The position numbers and the translations under genes are program-made. The notes beneath the pieces were generated by a model, which saw only the letters and a program-made list of their open reading frames with translations, ran no database searches and was not told where the DNA came from. From the NCBI GenBank assembly GCA_041663425.1, contig JBAYMS010000003.1, forward strand, positions 1,959-65,958: DNA of 64,000 nt, read 5' to 3'. Positions 32,746 through 59,800 of this stretch are shown one piece after another. Position 1 is the first letter of the stretch; the number at the start of each line of letters is the position of its first letter. Origin of the DNA: Candidatus Omnitrophota bacterium. Its GTDB lineage: Bacteria; Omnitrophota; Gorgyraeia; 2-01-FULL-45-10.

Positions 32746-32773
32746 ATTATATCATATAATACTAACTTGTCAA
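32746..32773 (-). promoter_or_regulatory. Consensus sigma-70 promoter for gene A (TTGACA-16 nt-TATAAT)
   Basis: Minus strand reads TTGACAAGTTAGTATTATATGATATAAT. The -35 element is at 32773-32768 and the -10 at 32751-32746. It lies in the 198-bp AT-rich spacer about 85 nt upstream of the gene A ATG. A weak AAAGGAAAA lies about 12 nt upstream of the ATG. Confidence 0.55.
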
Positions 32774-38800: not shown

Positions 38801-41800
38801 CATCCAGATAAGCGCTGATCATTTTATAAAGTTCTGCGCGGACACTATTTATCTTCGCATAGCGTGAAGCCTTGTATAGCCGGGGTTTCAGGGTTATCAA
38901 TTCTGCGTCAAGCTGCTGTGCCCTTGCGTATATTGCGGTTAATACATCGGCCTTATCTTTCACGTCGAGCGTTAATGCAATATCATATGCTTTCTTAAGA
39001 TCTTCTGCCTGACGGCTTACCCGGTCTATAACTCGCTCCATAAATTTGCCTGGCAAAGCGCTCTTCTCCACATATAGGAGAGCCGCTTTTTTGTCCCAGC
39101 TCTTTTTCATCTTTATTTCAGACGCTGAAATGCCTTCGGCTAATTCTATAGCCTTAGCAATACCATCAAGCTGACCCTCTTCGCTATAGTGTTCAAAAAG
39201 CTTCTTCTTCATCTCAATATCGTCTTTGGACAAACTCATCGCTTTCTTAAAGGCCGAGCGCGCCATTAAAATATTGCCGGATATCTTATAGGCTTTGCCT
39301 TCTATAAAGGCTGCGGCGGCAGAATTTTTAACAAATGACTGATAATCCTTAATAATATTTATCGCAGCACGGGCCCCCGCGGCATCACCTGCAGCTATCG
39401 CGATGCCGGCCATGGTTTCAATAAGACTCGCGGCGTCTTCTGATGTGATCGTAAGGCCGTAATCCGTCTGCTCCTTTTTCGACTTACCAAAGAACCACAC
39501 GCCCCGCAGAAGCAATAGATCGTCCGTAGCCCATATAACAGCGGAGGCGATATTCTGCGCCTCGCCGAAAACACCTTTTTTATACAGAACACCTGCCAGC
39601 TTCGTCCATGCAGTGCCCAAACGCGGCGATATCAGCGCTGCGGCACGAGCATGCTTTTCCGCGTTATCATAATTCGCCTTCGGGTCGATCCCGGCCTTTT
39701 CATCTTCTCCGGCTTTTTTCATATATACATCGCATATCTTTAATTCCGTCGCAGCGCACCCGACGTTATCATGCAGCTGTTTCTGGATATTACTAAGCAG
39801 CTCCAGCATTTCTATATTATCCGCCGCTTTCGCGAGAGCTTTATTTACAAATTTACGGGCATCATAAAGCCTGCCTAAGAGCATGAATACATTTGCCTTA
39901 TAAAAATTGGCCATTGGCTGGTCCGGAGAAATCGCAAGGGCTTTATCGAGCAGCATTAAGGACTCGTAAAAATTACCTTTATCCATTTCATCTTTACCGA
40001 GCTCTGCAAATGCCGCGGCATTAAATTTAGCCGCTTCCTCCCGGAGAATTCTTTCTCTGGCCGCTGCATTATCCGCGGCAAATATAAGCTGGCGTTCAAA
40101 AAGTGCCAGCTCATCCCACTTCTTATCCATGCCTTTCATCTTACCCAAAGCTTCATTCAATAAAGGCGATATCGCCTCAAGCATGGCTCTGTCTGCCTCA
40201 TACTTCTTATCGCCTTTTGAAAACTTTTCCAGGAACATTTTATAAAGGATACCGGAGATATCTTCATCGCTCTTGTCTTTTAAAACATCAGGGTTGTCTT
40301 TTAATCCGATAAGCTCAAATATCGCGCTGCACATCTTTTCACGGGCCGATATTTTTATTACTTCATCCGCGGCGGTATTCATAATATCTGCCAGCATTTC
40401 TATGAGATCTTTTTTATCCGCCATCTTCCCGGCGGTATAATCCAGAAGGGCCGTGGCAGATAATGTCCTGCCTTCCAGCACAGCTTCATTATTATTGGCC
40501 GCCTTTATAGCATTAACCGTATTTTCCCTGCCTGCAATTTTATAAATGATATCAAACTCCAGTTCCTGCAAAATATCAAGCTGACGCATCCTTTCCTTAC
40601 GGGCTGCCTCAGATCTGATCTCCCCGCGTTTCCTGTCTATCGCAGTAAACAGCACCCCGCGCGCATTCTGGCCTACAATATTCAGAAGCGCCTGTCTCGC
40701 ATCCTTCACAGAGGCGTCATCTTTGTCGCCATCTACAATAACAGCGATGGCATCACGGACAAAATTACGCAGTCTTGCCACGATCATACTTGCGCGCTGG
40801 TCAGCTTGGTCGGATTTATCCTGCAGATCCATGACGTCGTATTCGGAGTCCGTAACCTTTTTGTTTGCACGATCGAGCTTTTCGGTTTCAGATTTAATAT
40901 TCCCTTTAACTTTATCTATGCCGGACGATGCCTCATACGCATCCATATCCGCGAGCGCTTTTTCTTTGGCATCCGTCCCGTCAGCGGCCAGCCGGACTTT
41001 TTCGCCGCGCCTGCTGGCAATATCCGCTATTTCCAGTTCTCTCAGATCAGTCTTAAGTTTCTTTATCTTTTCAGATATCTCATCTCTCTCCTTGACCGCC
41101 TTATCCCTCTTTTCTTTGGCCTCTGCCAGCTTCTTAAGCATTCCAGGATAATTAATGCCCAGCTCATAATTCAGCTGTATCCGCGAAGCCTCAAGCCGTG
41201 CCAATTCAAATGTTATTTTCAGTTTGGCATTGCCCGGGTCGATACGCTGAGCTTGTGCGAGATTTTTGAAAACCTTGGCCATCTGCGCCATGGCTGACGC
41301 AATGTCCCCTTTCAGCGCATAGAACCTGGCGAGCTCCATCTCGCCCTTGGCCAGGTTCATATACCACTGAGAGTCAACCTTATCCTGCTTTTTCAGGATA
41401 CTTTCCATCCTGGCAGTTATTTTATCGGCTTCAAGCACAAGACTATCCGGGCTACCACCATATTCGGACAGCTTATCACTATCCTGAAGAGCTATTACTT
41501 TTTTACACTCATCATTTATAAGCTTATTGGCTTCCTCTAATATACTAATAGCCTCGTCGTGCCTGCCCTCTACCTCATTAAGATTAGCTAGCGCGATCAT
41601 ATTATAAGTACTAGCCATGATCGCATCATACGCGGCCTTGCTCGCCGCAACCGAGGCAGACTCACGCTTGCTGATTATAGCTTTGCGGGCAGCCTCAAGC
41701 CCATTCGTTATGCGTTTATTGATCGCATCGTCTTTTATGCCTGCGGCCTTCATCGCCAATAACGCATTGAATGTTTTTACAAGCAAAGCATCGGTTGCTT

Positions 41801-44800
41801 TATCTGGATCTCTCAGGCAAGGCTCAATAAGATCCAGCAAAATACCTGCATCGACATTATCTTCCGGCTTTATTTTTCCAACCTGCGATGAAAGAAGCGA
41901 GACAACCTGTTCCCTCTCCTTAACATCTTTCGCCTGATCCATAAGGTATCTGCATAATCTCATCCTGGATTCCGTAGAAAGGCTTCCGCTCTCTGCAAGC
42001 TTTATAACAAGCGGCCGTTTAATATCTCTTCCGTCTGTATCATCGACGCCGTTCATATAATTTGCCATTATATTTATAAGGCCGGCGAGTTTATCTTTAT
42101 CGCTGACGCCGGTTATTAAACTCAAGAGCTCTCCGGTCAATGCACTCTTCTTAGATTCATCGGTTTCAGCCACTATGGCCTGGATCTTGAGCCGCAGAAA
42201 CCTTTCGGTTTCTTTGAAGTCCGGCGACACAGATCCTATGGCACGGGTGAATACCGTCATAAACAATTCTCTCATCTGCGCATCCGGACTTGCGCCTCTC
42301 AACCCGCCTTCATTTATTATGCGCTCTATAAATAGATCGGCCAAATACACTTCACGCGCACCCGCCGCCTCTGATCTCAAGATAAGTTTTGGAATAATTA
42401 TTTCTAACGCGATAGGTCTGAAACTGTCCTTAAGTTCCCTCAAACCTGCCGACAGCTCTTCGTTTATCCACTGCAGAGTAAAAGATGAGCCTCTCTGGCC
42501 TTTTTCCAGCATCAACATAGAATCTACATACCGCGACAGCATCTTAAGGCGCAGCACCGTGTTCCAGTTAGAATCTTCTGTAGACATATCTCTATCTATT
42601 AAAACGATCTCATCGTCGCTTATACTAAGACTGCCTTGCTTACTTATCCTGTCTTGGGGGCTGACAGCTTTTAGTTCTTTCATCCTATCTAAAATCACAT
42701 CAAAATTATGCCAGTTCTTTTCTCCGCCACCACGTGCGATATCCACCTCCGCCTTGAAATAAGCGTCCACAAAATTATCCAGCAGGGCCAGAATGGCCTT
42801 CTGCATGTTGTCATCACCATTAAAATTATCAAATAGCTGTTTGAGGTCACTTATCGCATACATTGACTTACTGCTCTTCTGCGCAAGGTCTTTACCGGCA
42901 GATTCAACGTCATTTTCCATTAAAGCAGCCAATATCTTTATAGCCTCTTCGATCTTCGGGGAAACCGCTTTTCCAAAAACAGCGCTTTCTTTAAATTTCG
43001 ACCGCAATTCCATCAGGCCTTTCAGGATCTCCCTCTGCCGCTCCAGCAATACTTTATTGTCATCCGTCAGATTTGTATCGCGATAAGCCTTTTGTAATTC
43101 TGCAAGCCCAATGAGTAATTGCGCTGCTATGACAGGATCGCTTTCAGCAAGCACTTCACTGAAAGCCTGCTTGTATGCCTGTTCCGGAAGCTTCAATTTA
43201 TTGGCTATACGGACATTGGCATCGGCAATCTCTTTATTAACACCGCGGATCCGCCGCATAGAAACGTTGTTTCTGCGGTATTCGTTAAGTCGAGAGCTCA
43301 GTTTCCTTACACGATCCTTTAAACTTTTTACAGCGGTTATAAGCTCATTCATATTTTTGGCAGATCTTGTCACCTTATTCATAGCCCCTGAATGATCTGC
43401 GGCGGCGGCCGCCAGCTTTCCTATGTTCTCATCCTTAAGCGCGTCTTCCACCTTTAACCCTAATTCCTTAGACGAAAATTTCTTATCTTTAAGCAGCTCT
43501 TTTAATTGCTGCAATGCGTTCACCGCGCCAAGTCTCATTGCGTTAAATCCGCTGCCATATGCAGGATCTATATTTTTAGTAACCGCCGATGCGAACGCCA
43601 ATAAGACCACAGCTTCTCTGTCATTTATATTGTCGGATGCGGGAATAACCTGCTTGATAAAGCCGAACAACTTTTCCATATCCGCTGCGTTTTCGTTATT
43701 TACCCTGGATAAAGCACGCATAATATCTCTTTCCGGTCCCGGCGCTATCTTACGCAAAGTCTTCCTCGACGGCACTTTGCCCTGCACTATGTCTATAGCT
43801 GCTAAAATAGTTGCAGCTTCTGATATGTCGTGCTTATTTTTGGAGTTCTTAACGGTGTAATTCATGAGCTCTTCGGCTTCGGCATAATGCCCTTCTCTTA
43901 TATGGATATGCGCAAGCATAGACCTGGCCGCAAAATTGTCCGGGTCCAAATCAAGCTCTGTAGTAAAACGCTGGGATTCTGACGGCTTCGGCAGATCAGT
44001 CTTCTCTTCTTTTATTTCCGCAACCTTCTCATCCGGCGCACCGTCTTTCGCGGCTTTAAGATTTGCGTCCGTTTCATCTTTTCTTTTATTTTCCAGAGAT
44101 AAAAGGGTTCTCTTTATTTCTGCATACGTTTTACTTAACGCAAGCTTTTCTTCCGGAGTGAATTGCTCCATAGGCCCCGACAAAACACCTGCTATGCTTT
44201 TTATTTTAGATATGAGATCATCAACTACCGCCTTATTTATCGCGGATTCCCCTGCGGCTTTATCCAGTAGTTCCTTAAGGACATCCATCTTAAGCTGCCG
44301 TATAGCCCTGTTGGCTTCATTGTTCAGATCCAGATTTATGACATCTATTTTGTCAAGGTAAACAAGCGCCTGCTCTGCATAGCCTCTAGACATTGCCAAT
44401 TCCGCAAGCATAGCGTTAATATATATGCTGCCCACCGGCATACTAAGCGTTTTAGCTATAAGACCGCCCCTTATAATACCGACCAGCTCTTTTTTAATAA
44501 TTTCATTTTTAATTCTCGATCTTAAAAGTTTAAATATGAAAACTACCAGCGTGGGATGATGCTTCGAGAATAAATTTGCGGCGGAGAGAATCTCTCTATA
44601 CGCATCTCTTTCCTTACCCATAGCGATATAGTGGTTAATGAGTGCAAGACGCGCATCCATATTTTCAGGCTGTCTTTTAGCCGCGCGCTTTTCGATATTC
44701 AGAATAGTCCGTTCCGATTTTTTTGCAGAATAAGCAACCTCTTTTTTCACAAATCGTTTATACCCCTGCGGTATCCATTGCCCAAAAATTATCCTGCCCA

Positions 44801-47800
44801 GGGCCACTATAAGCACAGCGCTGGGCGTATTAAGCAACGATGCTGTAGAGACCGCTCCCGCAAGGACAATAGGCGCACCGAAAATAAACGGTATGCCTAC
44901 CATAAGGCATAAACTTACTACTGAGACCGCCATCATCATTTTCTTGCCGGTCATTCCCGCGAAAATCTGCTTCACTGTATCTTTTACAGCCGCCCGGAAA
45001 CCAGGTCCAGCTTCTTCTTTTCCTTTTTTAGCCGCTTCTGCTTTGTCATTTCTTTCTTTAAGGATGGTTTCGCGCAGAGATATCATCTCGTCCATGCCTT
45101 CGCGATCCAGCGCCTGACGCCATAATCCGCCCGCAAATGTCCACCACTGCACCTTTACGGCAGACTCTATCTCTTTCAGGGCTTCATCATTTTTACCTTC
45201 ATCCCGAAGTAATTTTGCGGACGCGGCATGATATACTGTGCCATTTCTATAATTTTTATTAAAGTATAAGGCCGCATAATAATATTTGCCGGCGAGAAAC
45301 CGTAACTCTGCTCCTTTTTTAGCGCTTTCGTTTTTCACAGCATTTTGAGCCCGCTTCACAAGCGCTTCGGCAAGATCAAAGTAAGCCCCGGCATCCCTGC
45401 CATTCTGCGCCAAAGCACCCAGAAGACCCACTATCTCGCTATCATTCACGCCCAGCCAGTCTTCACAAAGCTTTTCCCTTGCGTCTAAATCTGCAGGGAT
45501 CGCGTAAGAGCCCAATATCTTGCTCTCCTCCGGCAGTTTCGCACCGGCAAAATAGCTGCGCAGCGACAGGAACTTATTATCAATCCATGGTATAACCTTA
45601 CCGTTCAATATCGAATTTCCGGACATAAAGACCGCCGATAGCGCCTGGGTAAACAGGTTTCCGCTGAATATCTGGCTTGGTGCGGTTACAAAAACAGCTC
45701 TGACAGCTTTAAGAATTTTAGGATGACCTCCCAGGTTTCTTTCCAGGAAAATGAAACTGCGCCTGTTCCTGAAGAAATCTTCCAGCCGGGAGAGTAAAGA
45801 ACGTGTCCTGCGTGTAAGCCAATATGCAAATTTCATGGCCCAGCTTACACGCGGAAGTATAATGCGCTCCTGCATTCCGGCATCTTCTGTTTCTATAACT
45901 TTTTCAAGACGCGCTTTTCCGTCTTTAAAAGATACTATAGCCTCTTTTACACCGTCGGGATTTGTTACAAATACCCCGTCCGGTGTTATGGATATATCCG
46001 AAGCCTTCATTGGAGTATTTTGCGCCTTATCCCTGAGGATAGGATTTCTCGCGGCCATCTCTTTATCGTCTTCGCCATGCATCCTGCTTATCATTGCCGC
46101 TGCCGCCCCAAACCTGCGGCGCGACTCTTCCCTGGCACGGACATTGGCAGGAGAACCATATTCGGCAATATCTTTAACACCGTGTTTCTTGGCCACGCTG
46201 AAAGCAGCGGCAGTTTCTATAGCGTCCATCGTTTCCCGGCTGGGATTGGCCCCAAGCGGAAGCACCATCACCTGTCCGTTATCGCATCGCATGATCGCGA
46301 CAATATTACCGTCATGATTACGGAAATCTACGGCTTTGCCGTCAGAGAGAGTGAAGTCCACCGTCTCCCCGGACTCTTCGGAAAGTTTAGCGAGTTCCGC
46401 GGCAGTTGAATAGCTCATAGGTGTGGCATCTGTCAACCTGCGCCCCTCGCCTTCAGGGCAGGGCGCCATACCTCTGGCAAATAAACAGACCGGCTGCGCA
46501 ATAGGCTGGCCCGATCCATCGCGGGGCCTGTATTGGTCCAGGATATCCTCGATCGCCCGATCCTTATCTTCGCCGTCTTCCGTCTGAAGATTTATCGAAC
46601 CGGCGGGCACGCATATAAAGTGCGGCATAGCCTGGACGCCAGCTGCGGGAGGAGCCGCTCCTCCGCCTGCGGGAGCCCCTGCGGCCGCTGCTGCAACAAA
46701 AGCGGGCATACCTGCCTTATCCCATGCTTCTTTATAATCCTCCGGCGTTATAACGGCTGTGCCGGCTTCAGAGTCTTCATCCGCCTTTACCTCAGCCACT
46801 ATTACCTTCTCACCAGCTGCCGTAGTAGTTTCGCGTATATCTATATTTTTCCTGCGGTCTTCTTTGCTTTTCTCTTTCTCGACAGCGGGCGTTTCACTTT
46901 TTAATACTTCCTCCAGAATAGGTGAAATCTTTCCATCCTTATCACGCCCCATCATGAGGTCAGACAATTTTCTTTCTTTGCCATTGGGGATAGCCTTAAT
47001 ATAATCCCGTCTCTGTGCCAGCGGCGCCGCCTCTTCCGACTCTACATTTATTCTTCCGGCTTTAGTCAACCCTTCACTTGCATTACGCAAAACAGACACA
47101 GTGCGAGGAGATACCACCCTTCTGACTGAAGAGATGAAATCACCGACAAATACCGTTCCGCCCACTATGGCAGCCGCCGCACCGCCCACTATGGCAGCCC
47201 CTGCAGCATAAGTTAATACAGCAGCTGTTATCGCCGCGAACGTTACATACCCTAACGCTGCCAAAGTCAAAGCACCGATTATCACAGGCGCAGCCACGAC
47301 CGTTGCTATTAACGCAACGGCGCCAAAAGTCAGTAACGCACCCATAGCCCCTTCGCCGAGGCCGCGCACTGTATCTTTGACTATGGTTCCCAGGGCAAGC
47401 AGAGAGGCTTTCATTATGCCGTTCTCTTTTCTCAGCTTCGCAAATCCGATATTCGTATCTACAAAGCGCTCAATAAGCCCTCCGGCTGCCGCTCCTAAAA
47501 GTCCGCCTAAAATAGTACCGAGGACAGGAACAGCGCTTCCCAGATACGCCCCCACTCCTGCGCCGACCACAGCACCAGCGCCTGCACTCACAACAACCCG
47601 TCCTGCGATCGTCCTTGGCTTAACCTCTGCCCTCTTAAGAAACGACTTAAATACCGATCCGAAAAATTCACTCATCCGGGTCTTTTTCTTCTCCGCCGTA
47701 TCCTGTCTGCGGCGATCTCCGGTGATCTCACGCTTGCACTTTTCAATGATCTTTCCAGACAAAACACCGGCCAAATCGCGTTTTACCGCACCAAGCCAGC

Positions 47801-50800
47801 TCTGCAGTTTACCTTTAAAATCTTTGGGATAACCTTTATCCAGCGACGTCGCTTTTTCGAAATAGTCATACTGAATGGCCTGCAGAGCGCTTTCAAAGAA
47901 CAATTTAAAGCGCTGGCCCAGCATTTTATCAGGAGAGTGCGATTCGCTAAGCCTATTGAACTCGTCCTGCGATATATGATCTCTCAAATCTTTATCCAGC
48001 CCTTTATATAAGACTCCTGAATCAAGGAAGCTCTGCCTTGCAAAAGCCATCATCGCTGCAAACATATCGGATAAAGCATCTTTGTTACTGTTAAATATGG
48101 CATCATGCAGCTGCTTTGCCCCTCCAGCACTAAGACTGGAACCTGTGGCGCTTTTTATACGTTTTTTTATCCTCTCTACGGCCTTTTCCGCGGCAGCGTC
48201 TATCTCTTTTTCCTTTTTGCGGAGCTCGGCTATTACAGATATATTTGCAGCAATTGCCTGCACAACAGGAGAATCGGATTTAAGTTTCAATATTTTTGCT
48301 ACACTTTCCGCATCTGACAACGTTGTTAATGCCCGGGAATCTATGGCCGCTATGATATTGTCCATATGAGGCGCTATTTCAGGCGCAGCCGCCTCAGCTG
48401 TGCCTATCTTTGAAACCGCCTTACTGCGTAAACCGGTTTTTGATTCCAGTAAAGCCATGACTTCATGCGCTTCCTGTCTGGCTTTCAGAAATTCGTTCCG
48501 GCTCTTTTCTATGCGCGCATTATTAACAAGCCCTTTCAGCACTCCGCATATTAACCTGGCATTGTCTTTATTCAGATCCCTTATTGATACTTCATAAACT
48601 GTACGCTCATTCTTAGTACCTTTATTCAGGACGACCGGTAACTTAAGATGTATTACAAAGTTTTCTTTATCCATAAATGCGGCGTCTTCGCCGAACACCA
48701 TTAATAGCGTTGCCCGCAGACGCTGGAGAGTTTTTTCATCGGCACTTTCAGCACCTTTTGCAATATCGTCAAGCAATTGTTCGGCAATATCCTCATATCC
48801 TGCCCCTGCGATTTCCTGGCCCGCGACTTTAGTGCTATACGGCGCAAACTCGTCACGGAAAACGTCAAACTCCGCAAGTTCCGCTTTGGAATTTTTAACC
48901 CTCTCCTTCTGCCCTTCAAGGTCTATCTTCAGCAAGGCGTCAAAAATATGATTATATATTTTAGCCTTCAGTGCTTTGCGCCTATCAGCATCCTGCTCCG
49001 TAAGGGAAGTGCCGCTCTTTAAAATATTTGTAAGCCTCCTGTATTCGGCAATATCTTCTTCTATCTCTGCCATACGGCTCGTATTCTTAAAAGCAGACTG
49101 AAGTATATCCATATCACTGCTTCCGGCGCTGAGATTGAAATAGAGCTGGTAGCTCATAGGATCCGCCTGCCTTCCGGCGCGTCCTACACCCTGGACGAGA
49201 TCTGCTACCGCCTCTTTAGTTAATGTGCTGAGCAGGCGATAACCTTCTATATACCTGGCATTGACGCCGGTCCTGAATTTCGTCAGCACCTGCAGCATGG
49301 CTCCGACACGCTGCTGTCCTGCCAGAGGTTCAAGCGCAATCAGCCTGTCCTCCAGCCCGTTAAAGAGCATGTTCGATTCGTTTTGTATGTTTTCAAACCG
49401 GACCTCTTCGCTTCCGCGATTTTCGTTAGCATCCGCCGCAAGTAATATCTTTCTAAGATTCTTAGCTTCGGGAGAAACCAAAAGCTGGACCGTCGCCAAA
49501 GCTTTGTATATATCGTCCAGGCATCCCTTTATCAGCGCCGCTTTTATCTTTATATCTTTCGTTTCTACCGATCCGGCAAAAATACCTTCAATGTATTTTA
49601 TATTCGCCAATACACTTTCCTGAAGCGCCATCATCTCTTTTTTGACTGCCGCGTCGACATTGTTGTTCGCAATAACCTCATCAAAAACTGCATTAATATT
49701 TTTCTTAAGGCTTTCTATTGCTACACTGATCCTGGTCCTTGCATTTTCTATGGCATTCCCTATGGCAACTTCGTCATCCCTGGCCGCACTTATTTCTTTC
49801 TTCAATACGGCCAGCGCATCCTTTATGTCTTTTTTTAAGGCCGGTATCTGCCCGAACATGCTGCCGCCCGTATCCAGCGCTTCAAGAACCTCGAACAGGC
49901 GGTCAAATTGAAATGCCGTTCCGCCATTATCCAATGTGCGTATATTGCGGAAAAACAGTTTATAGTCTGTGCCGCGCGCGCCGGCCTCTGTAAATATCGT
50001 AAGGCAATTACCGCCTGCACGGCTTATAGCGGCGTCAAGATCCTCCCCTTCAAGTTTACCGTCTATTATCTGCACATCAAGATCCGGGAAACACTGTTTG
50101 AGGAAATTAAGCGCTTCCTGCGCATCGTTTGTTGTCCGGACGAAATGCATACTCGGCCTGAACACCCTCAGCGAATCTTCACCCATCGGACATATGCTGT
50201 ATCCGTTCTCTACGTATGTCCTCAGCATCTCCATCTCATCGCCGGAGCCGTCTATAAGAAGCGGCTCTTTTTCCCGGATTATCTTAAGACAGTGGGGCGG
50301 CACCTGCACCACGCCAAATTTATTATCATAAACGTTCATGACTTCCCATTCGCTTGTCAAAGCTGTAGCGCTGGCTCCACCCCTTGTCAGGAAAAATTGT
50401 GTTCTCGCCACACCGCCGCCCACCTGGGATGATGTCCCGGTGTCGCGGAAAACCTCGGCATTGGGATCGACAAACAAGCGGACATACATTTCAAGGACTG
50501 TCTGCATACCGTCGCTTAATCGCCTGTTGCCGAGTATGCCCTGGCTGTATAATTTGATCATACCGTGTATAACTTCGCAGTCTTCACCTATACGGTTTGT
50601 AAGGAAAGAGCGGATGAACTTTCTCACCCATCCGGCCACATCTTCGGCTGAATAAGGATTGCCGTCCTCGTCGCGCAAATTTGAGGAGCGCAATGTCTCG
50701 GCCAATTTTTCACATTCCGTCCTCAGGAGCTCTTCGTTAAAATCTACCGCTCCGGTGTAGCTATTGAACGAAAAATATTTTCCGGATGGCACTCCGCTCT

Positions 50801-53800
50801 CTTCACGCTCTCTTCCGGTCTCAGTCTCTTCAGTCGCCATATCCCAAAGCCCGGATTTTCTGATCTCCTCGCCCAGCCTTACAGCCGCTTCGATCAGTTT
50901 AAATTCAGGTTCATTTTTATCGATGGTTTCGGCCTGGTCGGAAAGTTTATACTGAGTGCGCGCATCCCTTAAAGATGCGTCTATTTCATCCGTAATAACA
51001 AACAGCGCCCTTCTCTTATTTCTGAATAGTTTCGTTGTATCATTGACATCATCTTTAGGATAATCTTCGGCTATAAGGAAGTTCATTGAGGCAGTGTCAA
51101 AAGTAACGATGGCGCATCCGCCTTCTCTGAACAGCTTGTTCAGCTCATTCTGCCGCTCATCACTGGTCAAAGTATTAAGTTTGGCGGGGTCATACACATC
51201 CGATTCTATTCCGATAAAATCGAAGACGCCTTTTCTTGTAAGATGATTAGCGCGCGCTAAGTTTATATTGGAAGTTTCGGCGAAGACTGTAAGCCCGGTG
51301 AGCGACTGTGCCGACAATGCAATTATGGAAAGTTCCGTCTTACCTTCACCTGTGAGCAGATTTACGATGTAGCCCTCCGCGGCCATAAGTCCCGCCATCA
51401 GCTGTTCACCATAAAAACCTTCAGCGTATCCTCCGACGTATTTTATGCTCAGGTCCGCACAAGCCGCCGCACGGAATTTATCATGTGCCGTCACGCACTC
51501 GGTCGAGATTATCCGCATCTCCTCTTCGGTAAAGTTACCCTCTTTATCGGGATTTATACCCTTCTGCTTCATAAGCCCGGCTCTCGAGTCTGTCAGCCTC
51601 TTTCTCTCCTTGAGAACACGCTTCTTCACAAATATAGGCATAAGGCTATCTCCCAGACGCCCCAGGCCATCTTTGTCCAGCTTTCCCAGCTTTCCCTCAT
51701 TTATAAGCCCAATAACTGTGTCGAGAGATTTCACCAGTTTCATCTGCCCGACAATTGCATCCCTAAGCTGGTTCATCGCCTCGCTTATATCTTTTTCCTG
51801 GTCTTTTAACGCGAGGATCTTTTCAGCCTTTGTTATGGGCACACCATCTTCATCCACGCGGCCTTCTATCATCTTTCTCGTCTTATCCAGACGCTTTCTC
51901 ATTGCGTCCAAGGCAGTGTTCATTTTGTCAATATTCTCGCCTGTCAGTTTTTTTATCTCTCCGACATCCGAAATAAGACTGCCCCCTTTATTCTCCAGAT
52001 CGGACAGATAGCCTTCTATATCCTTACGAGCAAGAGCCTCTTCAGCCTTATCCCATGATTTAATAAGCGCATTCACCCATTGGCAGGCGTATGTTATATC
52101 CGTATCTTTCAGGTAACGCATCTGCGGCATAAGGACGTTATAGAAGAAATCGACCATCGTGTTTTCCAGCTCCAGGGCTTTTTCATCATTTCCGGCCAGA
52201 CGCAGGCTTAAAATGATCTCCGGAACTACCATCTCAAGATCGGAGGCAAGATCCAGCTCTTCCTTCCCCGACTTCACACGCTCCTCATTTATAGACGCAA
52301 TGGCATTTTCGACATCACCATCACCTTTAAGTTTGCCGGCTATTTTGTCCCTCGCCTTGCTTACTATCCTGTCGGCACGGCCTCTTCTGCTCTCAATACT
52401 ACCGAAACCAAACAATGCCAGAAGCCTGTCTTTTATCGACCACGGATGGTTGTCGCGCGCCTTATCGGTCAATCTTTTTATAAGCCCGCCTTCCGGATCC
52501 TTCGGAGTAAATTTATCAGTATCCTGACCTACAATATTCACCGTCGCTCCGGAAGCGATCATTCCTCTGAGTGCCGCAATAAGCTTGTCGGCATCTTCTT
52601 TCTTTAAACCTGCTGAAACTAAAGTCTCTTCGATCATGGCAAGATATTGCCCAGCGGCACCGAGATTACCGGCTTCTACCATATCTGTCATATCTTCAAT
52701 ATACCGGTTTATAGTATTTTTATATTTGGATGAAATATTAAGGCCTGATATATTTTCCGTAAAGGAAAGTAAGGCGGATTTGATCATATTTCTGAAACCA
52801 GTGAACGAAGGGTTGGAAGAGCGCCCTAATAGTTCCTCAAGCCTGTCAAGACGGACAGATATCCTTCGCTGATAACGATTATTGATATTTGCGCCAAGCC
52901 CTGACACTTCAGCCCTTACCTTAGCCAGTATCTCTTTCGCTATGTTAAAGTCTCTGTTCTGAAATGCCCTGTAAAGCTCCAGCAGCATCCGGGAAATGGC
53001 CATCATGTTCTGGGCATAGGCTCTTCCGACACCGGATCCGGAAACGGCCGTTTCAAGCTCTGTCAATACTTTTGCCGCCTCATCCTTTATCTTTACCGTC
53101 TCCTCACACACCAGAGCCATTATCTCTACGGCATCACATCTCGATCCCATAGCCGGCGCAGCTTTCTTTAATTGCTGAGCAGCGCTCCTTATCCTATCAA
53201 GCCGCCTGCTCCCCACAGCATCGCGCATAGCCTGAATAGCAGAGACGGCATCTTTTGCTATAACGCCTCCGGGACTGGCAGCTTTAAGCTCCGCCTCAAG
53301 AACATCGATAGTATCTGTTATTGTCTGCCATACAGCCAAGGGCATACCCTTGGTCAATTCCAGGTATTCATTAGCCTTGTTCCTGTAATCAATGATTTTG
53401 TTATTTGCAGTTAAGACCGCGTCTTTTACGCTCGACTCCAACGCAACAAGCTTTGCGCGCAGCTCTGTTATCGCTGACGGCACAACAGACGGATCGCCGA
53501 AGGAGCTTATCAGATCGTCTATATCTTTAATAAGGCCTTTGATATCTTTTACAAGCCTATCTTCATGCACCTTATCTGTGGCGATGCCAAGCTCTCCTGC
53601 GAGCTTAAGCAATTTCATGTAATCATCATCTGTTTTTTGTTTTTTGGCAAACAGGGCGTCAGCTTCATTTGTTAACAAAACAATACCTTTATGACGGCCG
53701 GAAACATCACTATTGCCCTCTTCAACCTCGATCATCTTTTTAATAGTCGCAGCCAACCAGGTAAGCTTTTGTCCCACTTCTATATCCACGCCCGGATCAT

Positions 53801-56800
53801 TTTCAAGAGAGCGGGTAAGAGCATTTATGATACGAAGCTTTTCAAGGTCTTTATTTTTTTCAGCCGCGATATACAGCTCTGCCGCCTTACCTTTAAATGC
53901 GGAGTCTATCGCACCTTCCATATCGCTTGTAGTAAAACCTGCAAGCATAGCAAGAACGGTCCTGGCTTTTTGACGAACGATAGAGGAGGCTTCTTTGTCT
54001 GTGGCTATAAATATTAAGGCGGTTACGCGGTCGGAACTTTCCTGGGAACCTTTATTAGCATCAATATATTCGATAATAGGCTTGGCTTGGGCTGCAACAT
54101 CTGCGGCTGGCTGATCGGATTCGGTTAAGAGGGATTCAATGACACTTCTTTCTCTGCGCGTTGAGGGAGTTTCCGCTAACACTGCAGCGGGCGGAGCAAG
54201 GCCATGAGTAGCAACACCGGGATGTGTAGTCAGCGCGGCTGCTTTAGCAGCCTCCAACCTGCCTATTATCCCATCAATATCTACTATGTCTGCATCGGCT
54301 ACGGGCGTTACATCCCCTAATGGTATCCATCCCAAACCGCCTTCGGTCTGATGCCATACAGCAACACCCTGCATCCCTGCTTCAAATGCCGACGCACCGG
54401 CCATTGTGCCTCCTTCGGCGGCAAGCACAAAATCCGGCTCTGCGGAAGTGGCATGTATAAGTTCGTGACCTATTAAAAACAGATCTTTCTTAGCTACTAA
54501 GATAATTATGCGTCCATCCTCCAGCCTGATCGTAATACCATTCTTCGCATCACCTTTATATCCCATGAGCGCGGCTATTTTATCGATCTTTTCCTGTTCT
54601 GTAAAATACACAGGATGGCCGTATCCGGCAAGCATCACCGGAGAACCCTCCCATATTTTTTCCAGTATATCCACAGCCCTCGGGGCTATTTCTTCGGGAG
54701 AATTTGTATTATTAAGCACTATCTTAAATAATTGTTCCCACTTTTTAACATCAAATTCCACTCCCGCTTCAGCAAAAGCTTCTTCGAGGGCCAGATACGC
54801 TTTATCCCTTTTTTCACTCGACCACTTCCGGAGCGCAGCTCTCATGTGCTCAATTTTCACAGTCTCTGATTTTCTCGACTTTGCGACATCCTGCGCCATA
54901 TTAAATATCTGCGCCAGTTCCGCGCCGGTCAATTTTCTTTCAAGGAAACCCTTCAAATAAGCATTTGCCCTGTAGCTAAAAGCCATCCAGTATTTAAGCG
55001 CCTGTTTAAAATCATCCTGCGCTAATACCCTGACTTTGTCTTCCTTTTTCGCTTCTTCGTAAATTGAATAAGCAATTTCATACATACGCACCATTTCGGC
55101 ACCTGCGAGAGAGCGGCCGATAGCAGCTTTCCATTGCTGCGCATTCGCAACCCAATCGGCAATTACAGAGTCAACATCCGTTCCTGCTCTTTGGGCAAGG
55201 CCATAAATATACAATGCTTCTTCAGCGGTCGGCTCTCTTTTAAGCGATTCAAACCCTTCTTTAATGCGCTTAACGGTTTTTGCCCAATCTTCTGCCGCGG
55301 CCTTAATATGAGCCAGAGCAACAGGATTGTCTTTACCGGCAAGCTGTGCGGCAATACCTTCTATCTGAACCGATTCTTCTTTATCAGCTTCTCTTCCCAA
55401 CGCCTGCTCCGCTAATATTTTCTTTGCCGCCTTTAAAATATTTTCTTTTGTTAAATTTTCGCCCCGCACAGTCGCCATCTTTATTATCTTCTGCAGCAGC
55501 CCGGAATCTTCTAATAATTTTATAGCCCCTGCGTCAAGGCCGTTTTCAGCTAAGATATTTTTTGCAGCTTCTGACATCTTAGCTTTTTTGCCGCTTATCA
55601 TCCTTATGGCAGCTGCCCTGACAGCATCATCATAATCTTCGTCTTCTTTATAATCTTCTCTTCTGACTTCTTCTTTTATGATGTCAGCCAGGGCTTTCTC
55701 TTCACCTGGAGTAACTTTAAATCCTTCTTTCTCAAAAACCTCACCAACAAGAATAAGTATAAGATAGTCGCCTAAATGCGCCTTAACCATTTCGTCCGCT
55801 GCGGCTTCTATGTCTTTTTTAGTCAGCTGTGCTGTTTTTGCTTTTTCGGCCAAACTGGTTTTTATAGCATTAAGGATATCAGACCTCCTGGCCGCGGATG
55901 CTTTAAGCCCGTTATTCCAGAAAATACCGGCAATTATGCTGAGTATTTTCATGTCCGCCTGTTCCTGCGCAGCGCGGTCTAAGTCCGCCAGGGTCGGCTT
56001 GCCTTTGCCTGCCTCTTTAGCCGCACGGGCTCTTATCTCGGTTATATCACGTCCTGTAACATCCACCATAGTTCCGCCCGCAGCATCTACAGAAGCAAGG
56101 CCGTAGGAAGCAAATACTCCCGAAGCCCTCTGCCGCACCATATCATTAACAACTTCTTCTATAGCTTTACGCGCCGACATCGCTGCATTGGCTTGTCTTT
56201 TTTGGCTGGCTGCTTCCATAACCTGAATAAACAGACCGTAATCATGCCCTCGGATACCGCCAGCATCTTCTAGCACATATTTCATTACCAACTCAATAAT
56301 ATTTAAAGCGGTTATATCTTTACCAAAAAATCCTGAGCGCATCATTTCGCCAACTATATCATTTATGAAGCTGTCGGATAGGGCAAGCGTCCCGCCAAGA
56401 GCCGCTGCCGACATTTGCCCTTTAAGTTCGCTCACAATCAGTGATCGGATACTCGCTTCGGCCGCTGCCCGGATAGTATCTATTGTAGGTTTTTCCGCTA
56501 ACTTTTTTGCATCTGCTTTTATAGCATCTATCTCGCTCCGGGTAGCAGCTCTGTTAAACATCTTCATAAATATAGCATCTATATGCGCATCGACAGTCCG
56601 TTCCGCCGCTGCCCTGGCAAAAGCCTTTATTTGTTCAAAATCATACGTCCTGCCGTCCTTTAGATTTTTACGGACGGTATTCATATCTCCAGTCGATGGC
56701 GAAATACCGGCCTCTGCCATGCCTTCAGTTATAGCGTCCCGGATCAAACCGTTAACCAGATTTTCAGCCGCCATCTCTATCTCATGCGCCCTCTCGTCAG

Positions 56801-59800
56801 ATAACGCAGGAGCCATGGTTAAATAATCTGCTACCATTTTGCCGAATATCGCATCTCTCTCGACCTTGGCAAGCACTACTCCGCACACACGCAACACACC
56901 TTTAAGTATCCTGTCTATTTCGGCTTTCCTGGCATTTATAATTTCTCTGGCGGCTTCCCTGGCAATATCCTCAAGCTTGCTGCCTGCCTTGGCAGACGCC
57001 ATCCTCTCTTCTACCACACTCATCAAGTAATCTACTTCTGCTTCAGTTGCCGTCCTTTCAGCAGAACTTAATATTTCATTCAGAACCCGCCTGGCCGTAT
57101 TTCGCTCAATAATTTTCATTGCGGATTTTTCCGCGCTTTTCGCGGAAAGCGTCCCATCTGTTATTTGTTCAATATCCTTATCATTTATAAGTCCTTCTGA
57201 TATCTCCCTGGCAAATTTTCCTTTTAGCTCTCCCTGCATATTGGCTTTAATGCGATCCCTGTCCCAATCGGCTTTATTCCTTGCGGCATTTCTTATATCT
57301 TCAAGTGTAGGTTTTTTATTCTCGCCTGCGGCTAATTGCGCATCACCCATCATCGATTTAATAAAATCAGGATTTGCGGCCGCGTCGGCACTGAAGCCTT
57401 TTTCTCCAAGAACTTCCTCTATGACTTTTCGCATCTCTCTCTCAGCTTGCGCCTGAGCCTTGTGCCACAATGCTTCGGCAGGCTTTGTCTCCCTGGAAGC
57501 TGAATAGTCAAATAATAGCTCATCTTTAAACTCAGACAGCATGCCTTCCATTTCCTCTGGCGAAACAGACATTCCCGCCTTGGCAAATCCTTCTGTAAGA
57601 GCACTACGCAATAAATTCTCCACCGCCTGGCTTGCCGCACGCCTCGCAGCCGAGTTGCTAAGCTTAAGGTCTTTTGTAGCAACTCCTTTAACGCCGTCGG
57701 CCTGCTCCATAGCAGTAAACAATTCAGACCACATCTCTGTCGTTACGCTATCCGGGTATATTCCAAGTTCTGCCAACTCACCATATATAAAATCTTTAAG
57801 CGTATCTTCCCTTATTTTCGCCGCATCCAATCTGGCGGCAAGCAGTTTTGGACCTCTCTCAAGAACGGCAGCTTTAACATCCTCCGCCGTTACCGTCTTT
57901 GCTTTGCCTTTTACCGCACCTGCCGCTCTCCTCATATAATCAAGCACCTGCACCACTTCTGCCTCAGTAGCTTTCTGGCTATGAAAAAAGTCTTTAAGAA
58001 CATCTGCTATTTCATTTTTAAGCCGTTTTTCAGCCGCATCCCTTTGCGCCTTCAGCGCAGCGAGCCTCTCCTCCTCCTTGCGGCTTCGTTCAATATCTCT
58101 CAGCTTCGATGCAAGTTTTTCGCTTATCCTCTCCAGCGAGAGCCTTTCTCCGGCCTTGGCGCTGACAGATGTACCCGCCATTACCTCTCTGAGACCTTCA
58201 CCCTTTACGAGATTATCGATAAAAATTTCCTTACCATATTCAGTAACACCTATACCATTTGCCAAGGCAACTGCGTCTATTGCTTTACTTATCGCATCTC
58301 GTATAAGCTCATCACAAAATTCAGGCGTTATAGTCTGGGCTGTAATACCGGATTTTTTCGCTGCGGCTAAAAGTTCTTTTTCTTCGTTTTCGCTCAAATT
58401 AATACCATGCATGCCTGCCGACTCAGTAATAGTACCCAGCATTTCGGCTGTTTTCTGTTTGGCAAATTCACTGGCGGCCTCTTCCATCACCGCTTCGTTG
58501 CACCTACCCACACCTGTTGTTTTAGTAAGTTCGCCTTCATCTTTAGGGGCGAGGGCGGCCTTTTCTGTGGCCATTTTAATTATTTCTTTTTTTATGGCTT
58601 CCATTTCCGCGGGCGAGAAACTACTCATATCGATCCCGCTGCTTTTAAGCCCTTTATCGATAGCTTCGGTTAAAATAGCATTAAGGCGGGTCCTGATTTC
58701 CTTTTTCATCTGAGATGTCGAGACTCCGTCTTTCTGAATACCATCCCGCACCGCCCTCACTATGGATTCACTTGGCAGCCATCCAAACCCCATAGCTTTA
58801 AATTCATCATCAATAGCCTTCTCCATTGTTTTTTCAGCTCTTGCGGTCAGTTCTTTTTTAAATTTATCCGCAGTCTGGGCTTCGCCAAATGCCGCTTCAT
58901 TCTCTATGCCTGCTCCAACCTTTCTGGCAAAAGCTTTGTCATTCCATTCTGCCATTATCGAATCTACGACTTCCTCAGAAGGAGTAAGGCCTACAGACGC
59001 AAAAGCCTCAGTTACCATAGAAGTTATAAGAATTTTTAATAACGCTTTCGCTACTTTCAATATATCTGCATCCGCAAGGCCTTGGCCATCCAATAAACTC
59101 TTAAGGTCCTTAGGGCTTATCTTTACGTCTTTTCCATCAAGGGATATGTCGTATAAAGCAAGCGCCATCTCCTGCATATTTTCCGCCAATGCCCGCAGCC
59201 TCTGAGAAACTACTTTCTTAGCTTCCTTAACCGCAGCATCAGCTGGTGCTGTCCGTTCGGCTATTTCCATTAATTCAGCCTTGGACAAAACCTCACTGCC
59301 CGTCACCCCACCTCTCACAGCCTGCTCCCTCACAAGAGCAGCTCTGAGTTTCGCACTTTTATACTCAGCGACTCTTTCTTCGGCCGCTTTTTTAAGTCTC
59401 TCTGCCTCAGCTTCCTGCGCAGCCCTCTTCTCGGCAGCGGCTTCAGCAGCAGTTTTCTCGGCGGCGGATTTCTCGGAAACGGCTTTATAAGCAGCGGCTC
59501 TATCGGCGGCGGCTTTCTGAGCGTCAGCACGCGCAGCAGTAATTTTCTCAGCAGCAGTTTTTGCGGCGGCTTCTTTTTCCGAAACAGCTTTCGCAGCGGA
59601 GGCTTCTTTTTCGGCGGCAATTTTTGCGGCGGCCTCATAGACGGCAACTTTCGCGGCGGCGGCCTGCTCTGCGGCAGCTTTCGCTTTAGTGGCTCTCGCG
59701 GCGGCGGCACGTGCGATGGCAGCTTGCGCAACGGCGGCTTTCTCAGCGGCGGATTTCTCGGAAACGGCTTCCTCTGCGGCAGAAGATTCCTCGGCGGTTA

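What the first reader, a model, noticed from the sequence alone, without database searches (positions are those of the whole stretch)
49100..51520. SecA-like DEAD motor embedded in gene B
All four diagnostic SecA nucleotide-binding motifs are present in the right order (I, II, V, VI; sequences and coordinates in the feature entry). A 330-aa insertion sits where SecA carries its preprotein-crosslinking domain. SecA-type motors outside the Sec translocase are rare. Here the motor is flanked by TM segments in a megaprotein, which hints at a self-contained translocation or remodelling device.
Basis: partly seen in the sequence, partly recalled or inferred. Interest (0 to 1): 0.75.

Follow-up and report, generated by a model that had tools for sequence, protein, structure and literature searches.

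The report
SecA-like ATPase inside giant Omnitrophota protein
A real but highly divergent copy of the ATPase core of the protein-export motor SecA sits inside a 10,319-residue membrane-anchored protein, and such modules were already reported in 2023 for giant proteins of Omnitrophota bacteria, so this is a new example of a known and still unexplained oddity.

Summary

Two details need correcting:
- The "330-aa insertion" is SecA's normal motif II-to-V interval and contains a divergent preprotein-crosslinking domain (PPXD). The true insertion is about 200 poorly conserved helical residues between motifs V and VI.
- Hydrophobic segments lie only downstream, starting 517 aa after motif VI. There are none upstream.

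No wing domain or C-terminal tail was detected, and a scaffold helix is at best hinted at.

About a dozen relatives exist, and every named one comes from Candidatus Omnitrophota. All are embedded in giant proteins with the same layout. West-Roberts et al. (bioRxiv 2023) already described divergent SecA_DEAD plus PPXD modules without scaffold/wing in Omnitrophota giant proteins and proposed self-export.

Verdict: a new member of a known kind. Function is untested, and interest is moderate to low.

The parts
32859..63818 (-). Gene B. A 10,319-aa ORF with no N-terminal signal peptide. It is colinear with Omnitrophota giant proteins over about aa 3800-10319.
48948..51656 (-). SecA-like ATPase module (gene B aa 4055-4957), with the order NBD1-PPXD-NBD1-NBD2. 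It is the only copy in the window.
50913..51416 (-). First part of NBD1 (aa 4135-4302), the Pfam SecA_DEAD hit. It contains Walker A LLTGEGKTE (51333-51359), FAETSNINLA (51249-51287) and Walker B DEIDASLRDARTQY (50949-50990).
   Evidence: 25.8% of columns are invariant across 8 family members.
50451..50939 (-). Divergent preprotein-crosslinking domain (aa 4294-4456), ending in the SecA-like GNRRLSDGMQTVLEM stem motif (50481-50528).
   Evidence: hhalign of this segment alone against SecA residues 248-347 gives E 4.1e-8 and probability 95%. Relatives P0101 and P0102 give sub-threshold PF01043 hits at the same place. In model 1, 11 of the 16 ten-residue pLDDT blocks covering module residues 241-400 are 82-95 and five are 51-78.
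49962..50378 (-). End of NBD1 and first half of NBD2, from motif III GASATA (50361-50378) to motif V LTIFTEAGARGTDY (49962-50003).
   Evidence: A weak Helicase_C match covers aa 4557-4619.
49269..49943 (-). Helical, poorly conserved insertion of about 225 aa between motifs V and VI (aa 4626-4850). It lies in the same motif V-to-VI interval where, from my own knowledge of the E. coli sequence, SecA's 'variable' subdomain sits.
   Evidence: V-to-VI spacing is 267 aa against a SecA median of 71 and maximum of 128; the family range is 135-509. Only 0.9% of columns are invariant. Predicted all-helical. VAR residues 519-547 are cited from PMC6620043.
49149..49262 (-). Last strand of NBD2 plus motif VI (aa 4853-4890), RYIEGYRLLS...GVGRAGRQADPMSY.
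   Evidence: 30% of columns are invariant.
47619..49121 (-). Helical region after the motor (aa 4900-5400), conserved in the family. It includes a 36-residue helix, followed directly by a 22-residue one, beginning about 55 aa after motif VI. This may be a remnant of the SecA scaffold helix. The window sequence carries an extra insertion of about 170 aa here.
47142..47609 (-). First hydrophobic cluster (aa 5404-5559). It is Gly/Ala-rich and glycine-zipper-like, with 4-5 segments and K/R on both flanks and in the middle loop. It occupies a conserved position after the motor in all relatives examined.
44832..44948 (-). Second pair of adjacent hydrophobic segments (aa 6291-6329).

Best explanation
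Shown:
- Gene B contains one highly divergent SecA-family ATPase core: NBD1 with an inserted PPXD, then NBD2. It is comparable to the SecA-N68 fragment.
- The catalytic motifs are intact and are the most strongly conserved part of the module across relatives that share about 30-40% identity.
- NBD2 carries a long variable helical insertion between motifs V and VI.
- No detectable wing domain or zinc-binding tail follows.
- The module heads a conserved core of about 6,200 aa in a small family of Omnitrophota giant proteins. In every relative examined it lies about 350-520 aa upstream of the first glycine-rich hydrophobic cluster.

Inferred:
[quoted passage not shown] The downstream cluster tethers it to the inner membrane.
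- It most likely works as an ATP-driven polypeptide clamp at the membrane, docking on SecYEG as SecA-N68 does.
- In that role it would assist insertion or translocation of segments of the giant protein itself that are synthesised after it. This is the hypothesis already published for this class of module.
For: Homology to SecA:
- Pfam SecA_DEAD, 51.6 bits against a cut-off of 24.6.
- Apart from one chance-level hit (E 0.49), only SecA chains in PDB by sequence, and only SecA/SecA2 models in NCBIfam.
- All 97 non-family hits in the 5.8-billion-protein search carry full SecA Pfam architectures or fragments of them.
- hhalign E 4.8e-41 over SecA residues 3-658; the PPXD segment alone gives E 4.1e-8.
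- Foldseek: the top 36 hits are SecA/SecA2, best E 6.5e-19, and the next family comes at 9e-5.

Active ATPase under constraint:
- Walker A, Walker B and motifs III, V and VI are retained, with minor substitutions in motifs III and V, in 8 of 8 aligned family members. L001 retains all five, and in L005 motifs I, II and VI were found.
- Invariant columns make up 26-30% of the motif regions and 0.9% of the insertion.

Conserved layout:
- Motor, then helical region, then TM cluster in the 8 relatives whose sequence extends past motif VI: P0101-P0107 and L001 and L005 (L001 partly duplicates P0001).
- The distance from motif I to the C-terminus is the same in B and P0103, 6163 and 6215 aa.

Literature:
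- Divergent SecA_DEAD plus PPXD modules lacking scaffold/wing, lying next to TM regions in Omnitrophota giants, with self-export proposed (10.1101/2023.11.21.568195).
- SecA-N68 binds SecYEG, binds signal peptides and has constitutive ATPase activity (PMC5603524).
Against: - No experiment or direct computational test of function was possible.
- Gene B has no signal peptide. The first hydrophobic cluster has K/R on both flanks and in its middle loop. This fits hairpin anchors with the bulk of the protein staying cytoplasmic, which would leave little in cis to export.
- The topology rests on a crude hydropathy scan, not a trained predictor.
- AF2 confidence is moderate (pLDDT 67). The C-terminal half of NBD2 in model 1 is unreliable because MAFFT misaligned motif VI.
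Confidence: 0.5

Rival explanations
1. Trans-acting accessory motor. The membrane-tethered SecA-like module exports other proteins, in particular the co-oriented giant neighbours A and C, which unlike B begin with signal-peptide-like sequences. This would be analogous to SecA2 systems dedicated to very large adhesins.
For: - B has no signal peptide and no TM segment in its first 5,400 aa.
- Gene A begins with ...KWWIRLVAITLTVAFINQDIVWA/QE and has more than 20 hydrophobic segments.
- Gene C begins MEVLPKFCRKSLFCKSVSILVILSFVFSNITFA/ES.
- All three genes lie in tandem on one strand.
- K/R on both sides of B's TM cluster suggests that B stays cytoplasmic.
Against: - Synteny with signal-peptide-bearing giants could not be checked in relatives, because the loci are cut at +/-10 kb.
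- NCBIfam SecA2 models score lower than SecA models, 20-28 bits against 43.
- Gene A has its own perfect-consensus promoter, so B and A need not be co-expressed.
- Omnitrophota genomes also encode a normal SecA (West-Roberts 2023).
Confidence: 0.15
2. Docking or regulatory ATPase rather than a motor. The N68-like core only tethers the giant protein to SecYEG or to a partner, or acts as a nucleotide-controlled switch. The variable V-to-VI helical insertion would regulate ADP release, as proposed for the E. coli VAR subdomain.
For: - SecA-N68 binds SecYEG with high affinity and hydrolyses ATP but cannot translocate (PMC5603524).
- No scaffold, finger, wing or tail was detected.
- The insertion lies in the same motif V-to-VI interval where, from my own knowledge of the E. 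coli sequence, the regulatory VAR subdomain sits.
Against: - The PPXD, the substrate clamp, is retained with its conserved stem motif. That would not be needed for docking alone.
- The family-conserved helical region after motif VI could replace the scaffold.
Confidence: 0.2
3. Nucleic-acid helicase or remodeller. Under this reading the module acts on RNA or DNA like other SF2 enzymes.
For: - The neighbouring gene A carries an SF1 Upf1-like helicase.
Against: - No DEAD, ResIII or SNF2 Pfam hit.
- SecA-specific features are present: the PPXD, the GRRxSDG stem and a GRxGRQxDP motif VI.
- SecA scores far better than any helicase.
Confidence: 0.05
4. Decaying relic of a captured secA gene with no present function.
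For: - Extreme divergence: about 43 bits against SecA equivalog cut-offs of around 800.
- Long branches reported by West-Roberts 2023.
Against: - The reading frame is intact.
- All catalytic motifs are conserved in every relative at about 30-40% overall identity, and conservation is concentrated on the motifs.
Confidence: 0.03

Closest known systems
SecA_DEAD/PPXD modules of Omnitrophota giant proteins (West-Roberts et al., bioRxiv 2023, 10.1101/2023.11.21.568195; 20-protein PF07517 architecture cluster in 10.64898/2026.06.07.730766)
   Same: A divergent SecA DEAD domain plus preprotein-binding domain embedded in a giant ORF. There is no scaffold/wing domain and there are TM regions nearby. 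Every named relative is from Candidatus Omnitrophota.
   Different: - This protein is 10,319 aa, below that paper's threshold of more than 30,000 aa.
- It is TPR-rich and lacks the glycosyl-transferase, dockerin and peptidase content of the 'Archaeovorin' and 'Dockerin' types.
- Its own subfamily is small: 10 representatives among 1.84 billion, plus L001 (which partly duplicates P0001) and L005 from the contig scans.
Canonical SecA, specifically its N68 core (NBD1-PPXD-NBD2)
   Same: The same domain order, the same motifs I, Ia, II, III, V and VI, and the same PPXD stem motif GRRxSDG. SecA gives the best sequence, profile and structure matches.
   Different: - 14-22% identity to SecA.
- About 43 bits against NCBIfam cut-offs of around 800.
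- Embedded at aa 4055-4957 of a 10,319-aa protein.
- An insertion of about 200 aa between motifs V and VI.
- No detectable wing domain, zinc-binding tail or two-helix finger.
Accessory SecA2 ATPases
   Different: SecA2 proteins are free-standing and retain the scaffold domain. SecA2 HMMs score lower than SecA HMMs here.
E. coli SecA 'variable' (VAR) subdomain of NBD2 (aa ~519-547; Das et al. 2012 as cited in PMC6620043)
   Same: An insertion in NBD2 in the same motif V-to-VI interval, variable in length between lineages. The placement of VAR between those motifs rests on my own knowledge of the E. coli sequence.
   Different: Here it is about 225 aa (135-509 in the family) and predicted all-helical, against about 30 aa in E. 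coli. No sequence similarity was tested or claimed.

Membership tests
SecA family (ATPase core) | NBD1 matching Pfam SecA_DEAD (PF07517) above the gathering score, with Walker A xTGEGKT and Walker B DE[VI]D | tested here: met
   51.6 bits against a cut-off of 24.6, E 1.1e-13. Motifs located.
SecA family (ATPase core) | Preprotein-crosslinking domain inserted in NBD1 between motifs II and III | tested here: met
   No PF01043 hit for the window sequence itself. However, the segment aligns in register with the SecA PPXD (hhalign E 4.1e-8, probability 95%). Relatives give PF01043 at E 4e-4 and 0.01 at the same place. The GNRRLSDG stem motif is conserved.
SecA family (ATPase core) | NBD2 with motif V (AGRGTD) and motif VI (GRxGRQGDPG) | tested here: met
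   AGARGTDY and GRAGRQADP, conserved in the family. Pfam Helicase_C is sub-threshold only, at 14.3 bits.
SecA family (full-length translocase subunit) | Helical scaffold domain with a two-helix finger | tested here: inconclusive
SecA family (full-length translocase subunit) | Helical wing domain and C-terminal linker with a zinc-binding SEC-C motif | tested here: not met
SecA family (full-length translocase subunit) | Orthology to housekeeping SecA or to SecA2 (NCBIfam equivalog scores) | tested here: not met
   42.8 and 42.6 bits against cut-offs of 814 and 800. SecA2 models score 20-28 bits against cut-offs of 725-1100.
SecA family (full-length translocase subunit) | ATP-driven translocation of preproteins through SecYEG | not testable with these tools
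   Needs biochemistry. No secY gene lies in the window.
SecA-like modules of Omnitrophota giant proteins (West-Roberts 2023) | Divergent SecA_DEAD plus PPXD embedded in a very long ORF, lacking scaffold/wing, with TM regions adjacent | tested here: met
   compared with the description read. The ORF is 10.3 kaa, not more than 30 kaa.
SecA-like modules of Omnitrophota giant proteins (West-Roberts 2023) | Omnitrophota origin and membership of the published long-branch clade | tested here: inconclusive
   Every named relative is Candidatus Omnitrophota. The window's own taxonomy is unknown, the closest relative is only 38-43% identical, and no tree with the published sequences was built.
Other SF2 helicases (DEAD-box, SNF2, RIG-I-like, DinG) | Best match to the DEAD, ResIII or SNF2 profiles, or to those folds | tested here: not met

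The most novel reading that the evidence does not exclude
The module is a membrane-tethered accessory SecA carried by a cytoplasmic 'platform' giant (B). It would feed the co-encoded, signal-peptide-bearing giant proteins (A, C and their like) into the Sec channel. That would make it a dedicated export machine for proteins thousands of residues long, with the variable helical insertion in NBD2 and the conserved downstream helices replacing the missing scaffold and finger.
Probability: 0.12. Interest if true: 0.7.

Novelty: new member of a known kind. Interest (0 to 1): 0.3.

Why it matters
How bacteria insert or export polypeptides of 10,000 to more than 100,000 residues is unknown. A built-in SecA-like motor is the only obvious lead, and it has been in the literature since 2023.

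This window adds a compact and well-delimited example from a small TPR-rich subfamily, with three features worth recording:
- It has a retained PPXD and intact catalytic motifs.
- It has a large variable insertion in NBD2.
- It has a fixed position ahead of the first membrane cluster.

At about 900-1,350 aa, the module is a tractable construct for testing ATPase activity, SecYEG binding and polypeptide clamping. It does not change the current picture.

Tried and rejected
- The first exhaustive profile search failed because the profile exceeded 1,200 positions. It was repeated with a trimmed alignment.
- A single-sequence scan of genome contigs found nothing. The alignment-based scan found two Omnitrophota loci plus two ordinary secA genes.
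- A word-index homology search with the region after the motor (aa 4880-5620) found nothing. Local BLAST against giants recovered did show conservation.
- Looking up names for the nearest free-standing SecA hits returned no names, so the origin of the module within bacterial SecA phylogeny was not resolved.
- The MAFFT alignment A3 placed SecA motif VI against window positions 568-575 instead of 822-830. As a result, the C-terminal half of NBD2 in model 1 is modelled as helices and should be ignored.
- I rejected the idea that the motif II-to-V interval is a novel 330-aa insert, assignment to another SF2 family, a second SecA-like module in genes A or C, and a reading of the module as a pseudo-domain.
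- I did not interpret the slightly higher Foldseek TM-scores to SecY-bound SecA structures (0.40-0.42 against 0.31-0.37). The model's domain orientation may be inherited from the SecA-rich alignment.


Full report
**Setting.** The window is almost entirely occupied by three co-oriented giant genes on the minus strand.
- Gene B spans 32859-63818 (10,319 aa).
- Gene A spans 7578-32660 (8,360 aa).
- A third ORF is open from 7373 to the left edge of the window (at least 2,457 aa).
- The finding (49100-51520) lies inside gene B and corresponds to about aa 4100-4906.

**Check of the observation.** Translating the minus strand shows the SecA-type motifs in SecA order.

| Motif | Sequence | Window coordinates |
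|---|---|---|
| I | LLTGEGKTE | 51333-51359 |
| Ia-like | FAETSNINLA | within 51249-51287 |
| II | DEIDASLRDARTQY | 50949-50990 |
| III | GASATA | 50361-50378 |
| V | LTIFTEAGARGTDY | 49962-50003 |
| VI | GRAGRQADP | 49158-49184 |

The match is well beyond chance.
- Pfam SecA_DEAD scores 51.6 bits (E 1.1e-13) against a gathering score of 24.6.
- No DEAD, ResIII or SNF2 model hit at E up to 1. Helicase_C is sub-threshold at 14.3 bits, at the expected place.
- A phmmer search of all PDB sequences returns SecA chains, apart from one chance-level hit at E 0.49.
- NCBIfam returns only SecA and SecA2 models, at 20-43 bits against cut-offs of 725-1493, so this is not an orthologue.

**Homologues.** Close relatives are few, and everything else that matches is ordinary SecA.
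- The word-indexed search of 5.8 billion proteins found two close relatives. One is labelled Candidatus Omnitrophota. All other hits carry full SecA Pfam architectures or fragments of them.
- The exhaustive HMMER search of 1.84 billion representatives found ten proteins below E 1e-30. Most are fragments or wholes of proteins 1,500-7,700 aa long. There is then a gap from 5.6e-37 to 3.9e-15, after which hits have ordinary SecA lengths.
- All named members are from Candidatus Omnitrophota. This includes Candidatus Makaraimicrobium, which NCBI files under that phylum.
- Scans of species-representative genomes and of JGI metagenome contigs added two loci, L001 (Omnitrophota Bin_214; part of it duplicates P0001) and L005. 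Both are open frames of more than 6,300 aa that run off the fetched DNA.
- The window's own protein is not in these collections. Its closest relatives are 38% identical over the full module and 43% over NBD1 only.

**Anatomy of the module.** I aligned eight family members and compared the alignment with a 55-sequence SecA alignment using hhalign.
- The comparison gives probability 100% and E 4.8e-41. It covers 617 columns and SecA residues 3-658 of 910.
- Motif spacings (I-II, II-III, III-V, V-VI) are 121, 204, 131 and 267 aa in the window. The SecA medians are 105, 168, 118 and 71, and II-III ranges up to 281.
- That interval holds a divergent preprotein-crosslinking domain (PPXD). Taken alone it aligns in register with SecA residues 248-347 at E 4.1e-8 and probability 95%. 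Without the GRRxSDG stem motif the figures are E 1.8e-4 and probability 49%.
- Relatives P0101 and P0102 give near-threshold PF01043 hits at the same place.
- The real anomaly is between motifs V and VI. The window has 267 aa there and the family has 135-509, while the maximum among 48 SecAs is 128.
- That stretch is predicted helical and is almost unconserved, with 0.9% invariant columns. The motif regions have 26-30% invariant columns.
- It lies in the same motif V-to-VI interval where, from my own knowledge of the E. coli sequence, SecA's 'variable' subdomain sits (residues 519-547 per PMC6620043).

**Structure.** Two AlphaFold2 models were made.
- Model 1 covers aa 4057-4916, with mean pLDDT 66.7 and pTM 0.50.
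- Foldseek against PDB ranks SecA/SecA2 in the first 36 places, with best E 6.5e-19. The next family, RIG-I, comes at 9e-5.
- One caveat applies. The alignment used for model 1 misplaced motif VI, so the second half of NBD2 in that model is not trustworthy.
- hhalign does extend from motif VI into the first scaffold helix of SecA (probability 82%). Model 2 also has a 36-residue helix, followed directly by a 22-residue one, about 55 aa after motif VI.
- This is a hint of a scaffold helix, not a demonstration. No wing domain and no SEC-C tail was found in the window or in four relatives.

**Context within the protein.** The membrane segments lie only downstream of the motor.
- A Kyte-Doolittle scan finds no hydrophobic segment at or above 1.6 in the first 5,403 aa, and there is no signal peptide.
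- The first cluster is at aa 5404-5559. It is Gly/Ala-rich and gives a weak Gly-zipper hit.
- It starts 517 aa after motif VI. So the motor is not flanked by TM segments; it lies upstream of them.
- The same order recurs in the 8 relatives whose sequence extends past motif VI (P0101-P0107, L001, L005): motor, then helical region, then Gly-rich cluster.
- Gene B is colinear with other giants from about aa 3800 to the C-terminus at 25-36% identity.
- The distance from motif I to the C-terminus is nearly the same in B (6,163 aa) and P0103 (6,215 aa), while the N-terminal parts vary from about 1,100 to 4,100 aa. The motor therefore heads a conserved core.
- K/R residues lie before, within and after the first cluster. 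By the positive-inside rule this suggests hairpin anchors, but it comes from a crude analysis rather than a trained topology predictor.

**What is known.** This phenomenon has been published.
- West-Roberts et al. [quoted passage not shown]
- They report the SecA preprotein-binding domain, the lack of scaffold and wing, the adjacent TM regions, and a separate long-branch clade.
- They also note that normal SecA and SecYEG co-exist in the same genomes.
- They propose that the domains help export the giant protein itself.
- A 2026 preprint lists a 20-protein PF07517 architecture cluster among Omnitrophota long proteins. It also finds that 46% of such proteins are 'TM-only', which fits gene B.
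- For comparison, E. coli SecA-N68 (NBD1-PPXD-NBD2 only) binds SecYEG, binds signal peptides and has constitutive ATPase activity, but cannot translocate (PMC5603524).

**Mechanism.**
- Shown: the module is a SecA-family N68-like core with catalytic motifs under constraint.
- Inferred: it is cytoplasmic, tethered to the membrane by the downstream cluster, and acts as an ATP-driven polypeptide clamp at or near SecYEG.
- Whether it serves the protein's own later-synthesised segments is open. That is the published idea and my leading choice. It fits the conserved position just ahead of the first membrane cluster.
- The alternatives are that it exports other substrates or merely docks the protein.
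- The trans-acting variant deserves mention. B lacks a signal peptide, while its two giant neighbours A and C both start with signal-peptide-like sequences. I could not check this synteny in relatives.
- A helicase role and a relic status are unlikely.

**Verdict.**
- The central observation is correct and the SecA assignment is robust.
- Two descriptive details, the "insertion" and the "flanking" TM segments, are wrong or imprecise.
- The functional interpretation repeats an existing, untested hypothesis.
- This is a new, fairly divergent member of a known kind. Its interest lies mainly in being a compact construct for testing that hypothesis.

Noticed in passing
window 3-63818, minus strand: Three giant genes lie in tandem on one strand: B (10,319 aa), A (8,360 aa) and C (at least 2,457 aa, running off the left edge). 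Intergenic gaps are only about 200 nt. The GC skew is uniformly negative on the plus strand.
   Followed up: partly
window 20721-21854 (gene A aa 3603-3980): An SF1 Upf1-like helicase core (Pfam AAA_11 at E 1e-19 and AAA_12 at E 5.5e-18) is embedded in gene A. Gene A also has more than 20 hydrophobic segments. It is a second, unrelated P-loop motor inside a neighbouring giant protein.
   Followed up: no
window 32559-32660 (gene A N-terminus) and about 7250-7355 (gene C N-terminus): Genes A and C both begin with signal-peptide-like sequences (...KWWIRLVAITLTVAFINQDIVWA/QE and MEVLPKFCRKSLFCKSVSILVILSFVFSNITFA/ES). Gene B, which carries the SecA-like module, has none.
   Followed up: partly
window 32746-32773, minus strand: A perfect sigma-70 consensus promoter (TTGACA, 16 nt, TG, TATAAT; 12 of 12 matches) sits in the 198-nt gap between the gene B stop and the gene A start. 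No terminator-like site lies between them.
   Followed up: no
window 2778-3116 and about 1270-1630 (gene C aa 1420-1532 and 1916-2035): Gene C has a CofD (2-phospho-L-lactate transferase) domain hit at E 1.5e-16 and a weak 2'-5' RNA ligase superfamily hit.
   Followed up: no
window 47142-47609 (gene B aa 5404-5559): The local GC peak (0.523 in the 46-48 kb bin) coincides with a Gly/Ala-rich, glycine-zipper-like hydrophobic cluster that is conserved in all relatives. K/R residues lie on both flanks and in the middle loop, which suggests hairpin membrane anchors.
   Followed up: partly
window 32859-44018 (gene B C-terminal third): Multiple TPR repeats are present (TPR_19 at E 2.8e-21, among others), and a relative is annotated as 'TPR repeat protein'. 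The conserved core of about 6,200 aa from the SecA module to the C-terminus has almost the same length in gene B and P0103.
   Followed up: partly
window 59340-59825 (gene B aa 1332-1493): A low-complexity stretch gives a weak hit (E 0.0044) to the histone H1-like HC2 model.
   Followed up: no
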